Below, piece after piece: positions 2,100 to 3,111 of a stretch of 7,468 bases of DNA. The notes below the pieces were generated by a model. That model did not search any database. It worked only from the letters and a program-made list of their open reading frames with translations, and had not been told where the DNA came from. Each line of letters begins with the position of its first letter. The stretch's first letter is position 1. Location: the IMG/VR virus record IMGVR_UViG_2541047500_000013; one strand, written 5' to 3'. A program made the position numbers and the translations under genes. The DNA is from a virus. Its lineage: Duplodnaviria > Heunggongvirae > Uroviricota > Caudoviricetes.

Positions 2100-3111
2100 A
2101 AAGGTGAAAACCGGCAGTTCATCCAGTAAGTCAGTATTGACCTGGCTTGCTGATATGTGCGGTGCCGATTTGTGTGCATACCCGTCTGTATCTGCACTGG
2201 CAGAAGTAACGGAACTGAACAAAAAGACTGTGCAGGACAGCTTACGACACCTGATGGAGATTGGGTTAATTGTTGATACCGGTGAGAGAAAAGGCAGAAC
2301 AAAGCAAATTGTGGTGTACCGACTTATCGGTGTAGAAGAAAGTGTTGCCGAGCCTGAATACACCCAAAAACGGGAGTCTTTAAAGGTGGGTAAAATTGGT
2401 GCTGTTAATAAAAACAGTACCGAAAATGGTTATGTTTCAGCACAAAACAGACCCAAAAACAGAACTCTTAGCTGCATGGAAAATAACCAAAGACACCCAA
2501 ATTTTCCATCAAAGACACCCAAAAACGGATCACGGAACCCAAAGGAACCCAAAGATCTAAACCCCACACATAACGCACGCGAGAGTGCTCCGACCAGTGA
2601 GCAGGAAGTTTTGTCGTTACAGGCAGCCCCCCCTGTATTCCTGTATGGCCTGAGCGAACCCATCGGAAAATTCCCGATGAGCGATAGCTGGTATCCGTCA
2701 CGGGATTTTCGACGACGGGCTGCGTTGTGGGGGATGGCTTTGCCGGAGACAGAATTTACACCTGCTGAACTTGCCGCCTTCCGGGACTACTGGGCAGCGG
2801 AGGGGAAAGTGTTTACGCAGATTCAGTGGGAGCAGAAATTCGCCCGTCACGTAAATCACGTCAGGGCGCAGGTTAAACCAGTCAGCAAAGGGGTAAACCA
2901 TGCAGCAGCACCAGGTGGCACCGCATCACGGGCAGTTCAGGAAATTCGGGCAGCACGTGAGCAGTGGGAACGTGAAAACGGATTTATCAGCGACGGAAAC
3001 GGCCTGGAAGCTGTGGGAACTCATGGGGGTGGTTTATTCGAACCGCTGGATCCAGAAGAACGGGGCCGCACCTTCGAAGCTCTGGATTGCACAGATTGGC
3101 GCGATGACTGA
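2071..3111 (+). CDS. O-like replication initiator: N-terminal HTH iteron-binding domain, low-complexity linker, C-terminal DnaT-like domain
   Basis: Preferred start ATG 2071 (MSIDALRWAKK...) with AGGGGG RBS; the track's TTG 1996 start lacks one. C-terminal PMSDSWYPSRDFRRRAALWGMALPETEFTPAELAAFRDYWAAEGKVFTQIQWEQKFAR resembles the E. coli DnaT C-terminus as recalled. The linker is encoded by the iteron DNA. Confidence 0.85.
   Translation: MSIDALRWAKKVKTGSSSSKSVLTWLADMCGADLCAYPSVSALAEVTELNKKTVQDSLRHLMEIGLIVDTGERKGRTKQIVVYRLIGVEESVAEPEYTQKRESLKVGKIGAVNKNSTENGYVSAQNRPKNRTLSCMENNQRHPNFPSKTPKNGSRNPKEPKDLNPTHNARESAPTSEQEVLSLQAAPPVFLYGLSEPIGKFPMSDSWYPSRDFRRRAALWGMALPETEFTPAELAAFRDYWAAEGKVFTQIQWEQKFARHVNHVRAQVKPVSKGVNHAAAPGGTASRAVQEIRAAREQWERENGFISDGNGLEAVGTHGGGLFEPLDPEERGRTFEALDCTDWRDD
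2447..2554. repeat. Iteron-type replication origin inside the O-like gene: five copies of ACCCAAA in larger direct repeats
   Basis: ACCCAAA at 2451, 2495, 2517, 2537 and 2547. AGACACCCAAA is repeated exactly at 2491..2501 and 2513..2523; tandem GGAACCCAAAG at 2534..2554; AT-rich tract immediately upstream (about 2390..2450). Same position as the lambda origin inside O. Confidence 0.6.

What the first reader, a model, noticed from the sequence alone, without database searches (positions are those of the whole stretch)
2447..2554. Iteron origin embedded in the O-like gene, encoding its Pro/Lys/Asn-rich linker
Five ACCCAAA cores in larger direct repeats sit at helical-repeat-like spacings (10, 20, 22 and 44 bp), flanked upstream by an AT-rich tract. 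The same DNA encodes the low-complexity linker (...NRPKNRTLSCMENNQRHPNFPSKTPKNGSRNPKEPKDLNPTHNA) between the HTH and the DnaT-like domain. This dual coding is the lambda ori-in-O arrangement with a different iteron sequence.
Basis: partly seen in the sequence, partly recalled or inferred. Interest (0 to 1): 0.5.

Follow-up and report, generated by a model that had tools for sequence, protein, structure and literature searches.

The report
Phage replication origin inside initiator gene
The short DNA repeats inside this prophage's replication-initiator gene are very probably its origin of replication, built like phage lambda's origin-within-gene-O but with a different repeat sequence, so this is an uncharacterised member of a textbook arrangement, not a new kind of element.

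Summary
ACCCAAA occurs six times in the window, against 1.3 expected by chance, and all six lie within 192 bp of the O-like gene. The five reported copies sit at the stated spacings.

Comparison with relatives changes the anatomy. The true unit is a roughly 19-bp iteron, AAnAnnCCCAAAAACGG(G/T)A. It has near-canonical copies at 2363, 2452 and 2518, weaker or decayed copies at 2389 and 2419, and a variant site at 2496. The last two "cores" (2537, 2547) belong to a second conserved element: GAACC units about one helical turn apart, directly after the last iteron.

The same 11-bp core follows the same winged-helix N-terminal domain in phages of E. coli, Edwardsiella, Vibrio and Acinetobacter. It occurs in all three reading frames, with fixed synonymous positions, always on the coding strand and almost never elsewhere. 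The domain and its repeats are exchanged together as one module, while the C-terminal domains vary. A lambda-P-like loader gene follows.

The lambda-like reading is therefore supported by comparison, but no binding or origin assay exists. This allele carries point changes in two iterons that sister alleles keep canonical. Verdict: new member of a known kind, of modest interest.

The parts
2071..3111 (+). O-like replication initiator gene (346 aa). Domain order: N-terminal winged-helix domain, repeat-encoded linker, DnaT-like C-terminal domain.
   Evidence: ORF. Pfam matches DnaT (E 9e-17) and HTH_36 (weak). PHROG 1032 'replication initiation protein' matches at E 9e-91. PGAP annotates the same CDS in E. 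coli genomes.
2071..2355 (+). Coding region of the N-terminal winged-helix (HTH_36-type) domain, the presumed iteron-binding domain.
   Evidence: It aligns with 8 phage relatives, with a conserved DTGERKG wing. Relatives pass the HTH_36 threshold. The AF2 model (pLDDT 71) has H-H-H-H-beta-beta topology. Foldseek matches phage 'GpO N-terminal' and replication-protein-O models, and generic winged-helix repressors in the PDB. The family has 2274 50%-identity clusters at E<=1e-3.
2357..2375 (+). Iteron 1, AATACACCCAAAAACGGGA. The core 2363-2373 is perfect. It lies outside the reported coordinates.
   Evidence: This first iteron is conserved in all six closer relatives at the same position after the domain.
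2389..2399 (+). Decayed iteron 2 (GGTAAAATTGG), which forms part of the 'AT-rich tract'.
   Evidence: All six relatives (67-72% nt identity in the N-domain) have CCCAAAAACG at about this position (25 or 26 nt after the first core), followed by the same flank (GGtgctgtt).
2419..2429 (+). Weak iteron 3, ACCGAAAATGG. It is one change (T2427) away from the common variant ACCGAAAACGG.
   Evidence: Sister E. coli alleles have ACCGAAAACGG here. The ACCGAAAACGG variant is frequent in relatives.
2446..2464 (+). Iteron 4, AACAGACCCAAAAACAGAA. The core 2452-2462 has one mismatch (A2461).
   Evidence: The STEC1588 allele has a perfect CCCAAAAACGG here.
2496..2507 (+). Variant penultimate site, CCCAAATTTTCC.
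   Evidence: The same position holds CCCGTTTTTTCC in L052 and L125, ACCGTTTTTCCC in L077, and CCCAATTTTGG in L002, L023 and L128. This parallels lambda iteron 3, CCCTCAAATTGGGGGA.
2512..2530 (+). Last iteron, AAGACACCCAAAAACGGAT. The core 2518-2528 is perfect, and a GATC overlaps its 3' end (2528-2531).
2534..2566 (+). Second conserved element: GGAACCCAAA x2 (GAACC pentamers 10 nt apart), then GATCTAAACCCC. It holds the last two ACCCAAA cores of the finding. It is a candidate unwinding or loading region.
   Evidence: Relatives have 2-3 GAAYC units at 10-13 nt period directly after the last iteron. Periodicity there exceeds that of control segments (Mann-Whitney p = 4e-18). Mean A+T in the 0-60 nt after the array is 0.60-0.64 against 0.51-0.54 across relatives. 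The window's copy is not AT-rich.
2551..2560 (.). Module junction. Downstream of here the gene is 92.7% identical to Rac-SA53 ydaU; upstream it is unrelated.
   Evidence: Rac-SA53 YdaU has a DUF1376 N-domain and no CCCAAAAACGG motif.
2671..2871 (+). Coding region of the DnaT-like ssDNA-binding domain (aa 201-267).
   Evidence: Pfam PF17948 matches at E 9e-17. PDB DnaT C-terminal domain chains 6aep and 4ou6 match at E 1e-18 to 1e-19.
3104..3565 (+). Lambda-P-family helicase-loader gene. Its start overlaps the initiator's stop codon (ATGACTGA).
   Evidence: Pfam Phage_lambda_P matches at E 1.3e-16. PHROG 109 'P-like helicase loader' matches at E 1.8e-54. PGAP annotates 'replication protein P' from the equivalent of 3104.

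Best explanation
Region 2357-2566 is the replication origin of this lambdoid prophage, embedded in its own initiator gene as in lambda.

Proposed mechanism:
1. The initiator's N-terminal winged-helix domain binds the iterons, probably as a dimer. The iterons are AAnAnnCCCAAAAACGG(G/T)A: CCC and GGG half-sites about one turn apart, flanking an A-tract.
2. The resulting nucleoprotein complex distorts the adjacent DNA. The most likely target is the GAACC-repeat stretch directly 3' of the last iteron, which occupies the place of lambda's A/T-rich region.
3. The C-terminal DnaT-like domain holds single-stranded DNA and/or recruits the lambda-P-like loader with host DnaB.

What is shown: the repeats, their family-wide conservation at the DNA level, their linkage to the N-domain, the modular exchange, and the P-like partner gene.

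What is inferred: binding, the site of unwinding, and the role of the DnaT-like domain.

Because the array must also encode protein, it produces the Pro/Lys/Asn/Gly-rich linker.
For: 1. Non-random clustering. ACCCAAA occurs 6 times against 1.28 expected. The 11-mer CCCAAAAACGG with at most 1 mismatch occurs 3 times against 0.14 expected, with 0 of 200 shuffles reaching 3.

2. Same motif in the same place in relatives found by protein similarity alone:
- Edwardsiella EPP-1: 5 copies
- phiV10: 6 copies
- Vibrio phage Her: 5-6 copies
- Acinetobacter LZ35 and AP22
- Edwardsiella GF-2 (CCCAAAATTGGGA)
- Bcep176

3. Reverse test. A DNA-only scan of IMG/VR for two CCCAAAAACGG within 6-30 nt gave 120 loci. 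In 110 the pair lies in an ORF whose N-terminus matches the domain HMM, starting just after the domain.

4. DNA-level constraint.
- The motif occurs in frames 0/1/2 at 103/46/17 sites, encoding PKNG, xQKR and PKT.
- There are no minus-strand copies within the genes and only 4 copies in the flanking DNA of 54 loci.
- Inside P[KE][NIF]G peptides, Pro is CCC in 20 of 20 cases (background 18%), Lys is AAA in 14 of 14 (49%), and Asn is AAC in 15 of 15 (51%).

5. Unbiased protein sample. Signature peptides occur at 2.12 per 100 aa in the linker against 0.02 elsewhere.

6. Module exchange. The HTH_36 domain plus repeats is joined to DnaT-like (window, phiV10), Phg_2220_C (EPP-1) or lambda-O-like (GF-2) C-termini. 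Rac-SA53 and TL-2011b share the DnaT part but have other N-domains and lack the motif.

7. Likeness to the annotated lambda ori. Lambda has ATCCCTCAAAACGAGGGA x4 at 20-24 bp spacing, placed right after the N-domain, followed by GACAC and an A-rich stretch.

8. Remote homology of the N-terminal region to lambda O. Both hit PHROGs 678 and 345. GF-2 hits lambda O's own PHROG 277 from aa 44. Foldseek matches GpO-N-type models.

9. A P-like loader gene is translationally coupled downstream.
Against: - No experiment on this family was found. The open-access library holds no paper giving CCCAAAAACGG as a phage iteron.
- This allele has only two perfect cores. Iteron 2 is decayed relative to six relatives. 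Two more iterons carry point changes at otherwise invariant positions that sister alleles lack. The origin may therefore be weakened.
- There is no clear AT-rich unwinding element. The stretch after the last iteron is 47-55% A+T and of average stability.
- Direct profile comparison with lambda O is not significant (hhalign probability 4%), and Pfam Phage_rep_O does not match.
- The PHROG link could be partly inflated by the similar low-complexity linkers.
- Frame 0 (PKNG) is preferred (62% of sites), so some peptide-level constraint probably coexists with the DNA-level one.
Confidence: 0.78

Rival explanations
1. Eroding relic. The array is homologous to a genuine iteron origin, but in this allele (a largely cryptic EHEC prophage) it no longer fires efficiently, and the repeats persist only as linker-coding sequence.
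For: - Iteron 2 is decayed here but canonical in six relatives.
- T2427 and A2461 hit invariant core positions, while sister alleles (98-98.5% identical) keep ACCGAAAACGG and CCCAAAAACGG.
- Seven of about ten differences over 550 nt cluster at 2427-2475.
- The neighbouring DUF1627 gene carries a nonsense codon in this window.
- The related LC567818 prophage has a frameshifted exonuclease.
Against: - Two perfect and two one-mismatch iterons remain, including the pair nearest the GAACC element. For lambda, the two iterons next to the AT-rich region suffice for unwinding and in vitro replication (Dodson 1986 and Wickner & McKenney 1987, as cited in PMC7466680).
- The O-like and P-like ORFs are intact.
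- The allele is at least 99% identical in 768 complete genomes.
Confidence: 0.15
2. The repeats are selected only at the peptide level, as a flexible Pro/Lys/Asn/Gly low-complexity linker generated by slippage, and have no DNA-level function.
For: - Frame 0 (PKNG/PENG) is the commonest frame (103 of 166 sites), and many spacings are multiples of 3 (18, 24, 33, 36).
- Short peptides such as PNFP/PFFP recur in relatives.
Against: - 38% of sites are in other frames and encode unrelated peptides (xQKR, PKT) within the same proteins.
- Synonymous third positions are fixed: CCC 20/20, AAA 14/14, AAC 15/15, against 18-51% background. Meanwhile a first codon position (A/G, Lys/Glu) varies.
- The window's own six cores use all three frames.
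- The motif tracks the N-domain, not the C-domain.
Confidence: 0.04
3. The repeats are sites for something other than replication initiation: autoregulatory operators for the HTH protein, a packaging or partition site, or recoding (CCCAAAA fits the XXXYYYZ slippery pattern).
For: - An HTH protein with binding sites in its own gene could autoregulate.
- CCCAAAA is formally a slippery heptamer (read directly from the sequence).
Against: - The gene is annotated as, and homologous to, replication initiators, and it is followed by a helicase loader or a DnaB-type helicase in relatives.
- The architecture matches the annotated lambda ori point by point.
- None of the window's three full sites is in the frame needed for -1 slippage (C CCA AAA), and that frame is the rarest family-wide (17 of 166).
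- No promoter-like site was found in 1200-3700.
Confidence: 0.03

Closest known systems
Phage lambda ori within gene O (O/P system)
   Same: - The repeat array sits immediately after the N-terminal DNA-binding domain coding region and encodes the interdomain linker.
- Iterons of about 18-19 bp have CCC...GGG arms around an A-tract (lambda ATCCCTCAAAACGAGGGA).
- Spacing is 20-24 bp.
- A 'GACAC' motif and an A-rich stretch follow the last iteron.
- A P-family loader gene lies downstream, coupled to the initiator's stop codon.
- The N-domain and iterons behave as an exchangeable specificity module.
   Different: - The arms are shorter (CCC/GGG instead of TCCCTC/GAGGGA).
- The N-domain is of Pfam HTH_36 type, with no Phage_rep_O match. 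Homology to lambda O is seen only through intermediate profiles and fold.
- The C-terminal domain is DnaT-like instead of the lambda O C-domain.
- The window has no marked AT-rich tract after the array. Phased GAACC units stand in its place.
P22 gene 18 and phage L gene 18 origins; Stx phages 933W and P27 with six iterons
   Same: The published generalisation is that distantly related lambdoid ori-binding proteins each bind different iterons within their own coding region (PMC8022706). Iteron number varies, and distal iterons are bound weakly yet matter for function (PMC7466680).
   Different: - The iteron sequence differs: L has TGTCCAACGGA, and P22 has about 20-bp repeats.
- Those systems have genetic or biochemical support, which this one lacks.
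- Here the same 11-bp core is kept across N-domains only about 35% identical. Among lambda, P22 and L the iterons all differ.
Rac prophage ydaU-ydaV replication module (oriJ region)
   Same: From window position ~2551 onward the C-terminal two-thirds of the initiator (DnaT-like domain) and the P-like gene are 92.7% identical at the nucleotide level. The cro / YdaT-like / initiator / loader gene order is the same.
   Different: The Rac-SA53 N-domain is DUF1376, not HTH_36. The CCCAAAAACGG repeats and GAACC units are absent. Rac's origin determinants must therefore differ.
E. coli DnaT (primosomal protein I)
   Same: Residues 194-270 match the DnaT C-terminal ssDNA-binding domain (PF17948 at E 9e-17; PDB 6aep, 4ou6 and 9zbt at E 1e-18 to 1e-19).
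   Different: Only DnaT residues ~82-157 are matched, and the DnaT N-terminal domain is absent. The protein is an origin-specific initiator fused to that domain, not a restart-primosome factor.
Iteron plasmids with repeated 13-mers in the unwinding element (e.g. RK2/TrfA) and oriC 13-mers
   Same: An array of initiator sites is followed by short phased repeats. In those systems the initiator engages the repeats as single strands (own knowledge; PMC10602881 listed). This is the best analogy for the GAACC units.
   Different: - The plasmid Rep proteins have two winged-helix domains, and their origins lie outside the rep gene.
- The units here are not AT-rich in this window.
- Nothing here shows ssDNA binding.

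Membership tests
Lambda-type origin embedded in the initiator gene | At least 3-4 direct repeats (iterons, ~18-20 bp, with internal dyad symmetry) inside the initiator gene, between the N- and C-domain coding parts | tested here: met
   Cores at 2363 and 2518 are perfect and 2452 has one mismatch, against 0.14 expected. Weaker sites lie at 2389, 2419 and 2496. CCC/GGG arms flank an A-tract. The array lies between aa ~95 and ~160 of the ORF.
Lambda-type origin embedded in the initiator gene | The initiator's N-terminal domain binds the iterons specifically | not testable with these tools
   Support is indirect only. In 110 of 120 motif-selected loci the domain lies immediately upstream. The motif is absent where the N-domain differs.
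Lambda-type origin embedded in the initiator gene | An A/T-rich unwinding region adjoins the iterons on the promoter-distal side | tested here: inconclusive
   Family mean A+T is 0.60-0.64 in the first 60 nt after the array, against 0.51-0.54. In this window 2529-2580 is of average stability (51st-74th percentile). The only AT-rich stretch (2390-2419) lies inside the array.
Lambda-type origin embedded in the initiator gene | A helicase-loader (P-type) or helicase gene lies immediately downstream | tested here: met
   Phage_lambda_P matches at E 1.3e-16. PHROG 109 matches at E 1.8e-54. The start at 3104 overlaps the stop codon.
Lambda-type origin embedded in the initiator gene | The N-domain and iterons are co-inherited as a specificity module, separable from the C-domain | tested here: met
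   The junction with Rac-SA53 lies at ~2551-2558. The same N-domain plus motif is joined to DnaT-like, Phg_2220_C or lambda-O-like C-termini.
Lambda-type origin embedded in the initiator gene | The fragment supports replication when initiator and loader are supplied | not testable with these tools
   No experiment on this module was found in the searchable literature.
Lambda O protein family (Pfam PF04492 Phage_rep_O / PHROG 277) | Significant sequence match to the lambda O N-terminal domain | tested here: inconclusive
   There is no Phage_rep_O hit at E<=0.01, and hhalign against lambda O gives probability 4%. However, both proteins hit PHROGs 678 and 345, the relative GF-2 hits PHROG 277 from aa 44, and Foldseek matches GpO-N-type models at E 3e-6 to 6e-5.
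DnaT (primosomal protein I) orthologue | Full-length DnaT architecture (N-terminal domain plus C-terminal ssDNA-binding domain) | tested here: not met
   Only the C-terminal domain matches (query 194-270 to DnaT 82-157). The N-terminus is an HTH_36-type winged helix.
Pfam HTH_36 winged-helix domain | Score above the Pfam gathering threshold | tested here: inconclusive
   The window protein scores 20.9 bits against a cut-off of 25. Seven relatives that align over the same 95 residues score 30-49 bits. The AF2 model has winged-helix topology.

The most novel reading that the evidence does not exclude
This is not just another lambdoid origin. The HTH_36-domain plus CCCAAAAACGG module may define one very large, experimentally untouched origin class: 2274 50%-identity clusters, and 17% of complete E. 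coli genomes, with up to 4 copies per genome.

Its 11-bp iteron core stays nearly invariant while the binding domain diverges to ~35% identity. The class also carries a second conserved element, phased GAAYC units after the last iteron, that could be a sequence-specific unwinding or loading site.

If so, initiators of co-resident prophages could fire or titrate one another's origins. That would be a mechanism for the prophage-prophage cross-activation seen in EHEC.
Probability: 0.3. Interest if true: 0.5.

Novelty: new member of a known kind. Interest (0 to 1): 0.33.

Why it matters
It gives the likely origin, and the approximate binding-site consensus, for a replication module carried by prophages in about one in six complete E. 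coli genomes, including O157:H7 and other EHEC strains. The same module occurs in many phages of Vibrio, Acinetobacter and Edwardsiella.

This makes origin-cloning and binding experiments straightforward to design. It also offers natural allelic variants, with canonical versus mutated iterons, for testing iteron function.

It raises a testable question: do prophages that share the same iteron core cross-activate or interfere with each other?

Conceptually it adds nothing new to the lambda paradigm.

Tried and rejected
- The search for related loci with the N-domain alignment failed, because no stretch was conserved enough. I used a DNA-pattern scan instead.
- The search for homologous proteins with the 95-aa domain returned mostly short fragments of close relatives, which were of little use for diversity. 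The exhaustive representative search gave the family size and an unbiased sample.
- Direct hhalign of the N-domain alignment against lambda O was not significant.
- DnaA boxes (TTWTNCACA): none in the window.
- Sigma-70 promoter-like sites in 1200-3700: none. The terminator-like hits are unremarkable.
- I considered a programmed-frameshift reading of CCCAAAA and rejected it on frame usage.
- Literature: no open-access paper holds the motif as a phage iteron. The hits were PCR primers or papillomavirus E2 sites. The epsilon15 genome paper, which might describe these repeats, is not held. Searches on ydaU and oriJ gave only context.
- I did not establish whether this window is O157 Sakai prophage Sp9, which is reported as spontaneously excised and packaged (PMC2669165).
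- I did not examine the 10 of 120 motif-selected loci without a domain hit. Most have short or edge-truncated ORFs.
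Full report
**Context**

The window is 99.8% identical over 2.3 kb to 'PPompW' lambdoid prophages of enterohaemorrhagic E. coli.

The local gene order is:
- a DicA-like repressor (853-1260, minus strand);
- a P22-Cro-like gene (1337-1564);
- a YdaT/CII-like gene (1548-2099);
- the O-like initiator (2071-3111);
- a lambda-P-family gene (3104-3565, whose start overlaps the initiator's stop codon as ATGACTGA);
- a DUF1627 gene.

The initiator has a weak HTH_36 match at aa 36-67. It has a clear DnaT C-terminal-domain match at aa 201-267 (Pfam E 9e-17; PDB DnaT chains E about 1e-19).

**Checking the observation**

ACCCAAA occurs six times in the 7468-nt window, all on the + strand. 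The positions are 2362, 2451, 2495, 2517, 2537 and 2547. Shuffling expects 1.28 copies, and 0 of 200 shuffles reach six.

The five copies in the reported interval have the stated spacings of 44, 22, 20 and 10 bp. They sit inside longer direct repeats. The quoted peptide is correct.

The six cores fall in reading frames 0, 2, 1, 2, 1, 2. The repetition is therefore in the DNA, not in the protein.

A 30%-GC stretch exists at 2380-2440. It contains the least stable 30-mer of the gene, but that is unexceptional for the window as a whole.

**What the repeat really is**

Relatives found purely by protein similarity carry a fuller motif, CCC(A/G)AAAACGG(G/T)A, at the same place in their initiator genes:
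- Edwardsiella phage EPP-1: five copies;
- phiV10: six copies;
- Vibrio phage Her: a 24-bp tandem of five to six copies;
- Acinetobacter LZ35 and AP22, Edwardsiella GF-2 (mostly CCCAAAATTGGGA) and Burkholderia Bcep176: variants of the motif.

All of these share the window's N-terminal domain at 34-72% identity, with a conserved DTGERKG wing.

Rac-SA53 and TL-2011b share only the DnaT-like part and have other N-domains. They lack the motif.

A logo from 151 sites gives AAyAnwCCCAAAAACGG(G/T)A. The commonest spacing is 24 bp, followed by 18, 23-26 and 33-36 bp.

Measured against this consensus, the window's sites are:

| Core position | Sequence | Status |
|---|---|---|
| 2363 | CCCAAAAACGG | perfect (outside the reported coordinates) |
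| 2389 | GGTAAAATTGG | decayed |
| 2419 | ACCGAAAATGG | weak, one change from the ACCGAAAACGG variant |
| 2452 | CCCAAAAACAG | one mismatch |
| 2496 | CCCAAATTTTCC | variant penultimate site |
| 2518 | CCCAAAAACGG | perfect |

Three sites with at most one mismatch compare with 0.14 expected by chance. The variant site at 2496 is conserved in related forms in six relatives.

**The two 3' cores are a different element**

In almost every relative the last iteron is followed by G(A/T)CAC(N)GAAYC, then two or three GAAYC units spaced 10-13 nt apart. Examples are phiV10 (AACCAGTCATAT x3), L045 (GAACCTATCAA x3), and GF-2, Her and others.

Periodicity in the 60 nt after the array is far above that of control segments of the same genes (Mann-Whitney p = 4e-18). 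The first 60 nt are also mildly A/T-enriched across the family (0.60-0.64 against 0.51-0.54).

The window's version is GGAACCCAAA GGAACCCAAA GATCTAAACCCC (2534-2566). It is bracketed by GATC at 2528 and 2554. It contains the finding's last two ACCCAAA cores. In this window it is not AT-rich.

**Evidence that the DNA, not the peptide, is selected**

In 110 of them the pair lies in an ORF whose N-terminus matches an HMM of the domain, beginning just after it.
- *Frame, strand and location.* In 54 non-redundant ORFs the motif occupies frames 0/1/2 at 103/46/17 sites. These encode PKNG/PENG, xQKR and PKT. The motif never occurs on the opposite strand within the gene, and it occurs only four times in all flanking DNA.
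- *Codon usage.* I took eight loci found by protein similarity and looked inside P[KE][NIF]G peptides. Proline is CCC in 20 of 20 cases (background 18%). Lysine is AAA in 14 of 14 (49%). Asparagine is AAC in 15 of 15 (51%). A first codon position (A/G, Lys/Glu) varies instead.
- *Unbiased protein sample.* An exhaustive search with the 95-aa domain finds 2274 50%-identity clusters at E<=1e-3. In the best full-length representatives, the three frame-signature peptides occur at 2.12 per 100 aa in the linker against 0.02 elsewhere. Twenty-two proteins mix frames.

**Modularity**

Nucleotide identity to Rac-SA53 ydaU (92.7%) begins at about 2551-2558, directly after the GAACC units.

The HTH_36 domain plus repeats is found joined to several C-termini:
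- DnaT-like (window, phiV10);
- Phg_2220_C (EPP-1);
- lambda-O-like (GF-2).

It is followed by P-like loaders or DnaB-type helicases. This is the specificity-module behaviour known for lambdoid O genes.

**Comparison with lambda, using the annotated record**

Lambda's four iterons are ATCCCTCAAAACGAGGGA, ATCCCCTAAAACGAGGGA, ATCCCTCAAATTGGGGGA and ATCCCTCAAAACAGGGGG. They start right after the N-domain at 20, 24 and 23-bp spacing. They are followed by ACACAAAAGACAC and an A-rich tract.

The present family has the same plan with shorter arms: CCC, then an A-tract, then GGG. It has an AAATT-type variant site, and GACAC after the last iteron.

Evidence on protein homology to lambda O is mixed:
- Direct sequence comparison of the N-domains is not significant, and Pfam Phage_rep_O does not match.
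- However, both proteins match PHROGs 678 and 345. GF-2's protein matches lambda O's own PHROG 277 from aa 44.
- An AF2 model of the domain (pLDDT 71, winged-helix topology) matches phage 'replication protein O' and 'GpO N-terminal' models in BFVD. In the PDB it matches only generic winged-helix repressors.

Remote homology to the lambda origin module is therefore likely but not proven.

**State of this particular allele**

Six relatives with 67-72% nucleotide identity in the N-domain have a canonical second iteron where the window has GGTAAAATTGG.

Two E. coli alleles 98-98.5% identical to the window have ACCGAAAACGG at 2419. At 2452 STEC1588 has a perfect CCCAAAAACGG, while UTME-13 has CCCAGAAACGG, which restores the CGG but carries a different change. 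Most of the few differences cluster in 2427-2475.

The window allele is thus a slightly eroded array, with two perfect and two one-mismatch cores. For lambda, the two iterons nearest the AT-rich region suffice for unwinding and in vitro replication (cited in PMC7466680). Function is therefore plausible but uncertain.

The module, at 95% identity or more, is present in 908 of 5426 complete E. coli genomes, with up to four places per genome.

**Mechanism proposed**

1. Dimers of the winged-helix N-domain bind the CCC/GGG half-sites of each iteron across a bent A-tract.
2. The multi-iteron complex stresses the adjoining GAACC-unit region, where strands open.
3. The DnaT-like domain binds single strands and/or the P-like protein, which brings in DnaB.

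The anatomy and the linkages are shown. Binding, the unwinding site and the role of the DnaT-like domain are inferences from the lambda paradigm and from DnaT biochemistry.

**Novelty**

The literature already states that distantly related lambdoid ori-binding proteins each bind different iterons within their own coding region (PMC8022706).

No open-access paper was found that describes this iteron sequence or this domain-iteron pairing. Subscription genome papers (epsilon15, phiV10) could not be read.

I therefore file it as a new member of a known kind. Two points are mildly unexpected:
- the near-invariance of the 11-bp core across N-domains only ~35% identical;
- the conserved phased GAAYC element.

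Noticed in passing
window 3650-3652: TAG stop codon where the 99.8%-identical prophage LC567818 has GAG. This is a nonsense mutation that truncates the DUF1627 gene (3599-4333) after 17 codons in this window.
   Followed up: yes
window 2427 and 2461 (compare L133, L135): Sister alleles in E. coli UTME-13 and STEC1588 (98-98.5% identical) keep the canonical iteron base at 2427 (ACCGAAAACGG), and STEC1588 has a perfect CCCAAAAACGG at 2452. The window has T2427 and A2461. Most of the differences over 550 nt cluster in 2427-2475, so variation is concentrated in the iteron array.
   Followed up: partly
window 2528-2531 and 2554-2557: Two GATC (Dam) sites bracket the GGAACCCAAA tandem. A similar bracket (GGGATCC ... 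AGATCT) recurs in relatives L002, L125, L052 and L004. This is possibly relevant to SeqA/Dam control. It could also simply follow from the encoded 'KDL' peptide.
   Followed up: no
L011 (Moraxella phage Mcat8) 1783-2052: The same N-domain family is present, but the repeats are quite different: an 84-nt tandem x3 built of AAAGGGGGTACAATTTTGCA-like units. This shows that iteron specificity can diverge within the family.
   Followed up: no
L005 and other relatives; literature hits: The iteron variant ACCGAAAACGGT is identical to the papillomavirus E2 origin-binding site consensus ACCGN4CGGT. All literature hits for that string were HPV papers. This is a coincidence, or at most an analogy (dimer binding across an A-tract spacer).
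   Followed up: no
L134 (E. coli HSP425) 1501-1907: A truncated pseudogene copy of the initiator ends at the equivalent of window ~2321, before the iterons. It is joined to unrelated sequence.
   Followed up: no
window 2071-2099 and 3104-3111: The initiator's start overlaps the end of the YdaT/CII-like gene by 29 nt. The P-like start overlaps the initiator's stop codon (ATGACTGA). This suggests translational coupling along the replication operon.
   Followed up: partly
window 5193-5951 and 6230-6442: Cargo and maintenance genes lie downstream of the replication module. One is a Paa/AdfO adherence-factor gene and the other a Hok/Gef-type small toxin ORF, according to the annotation of the near-identical LC567818.
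   Followed up: no
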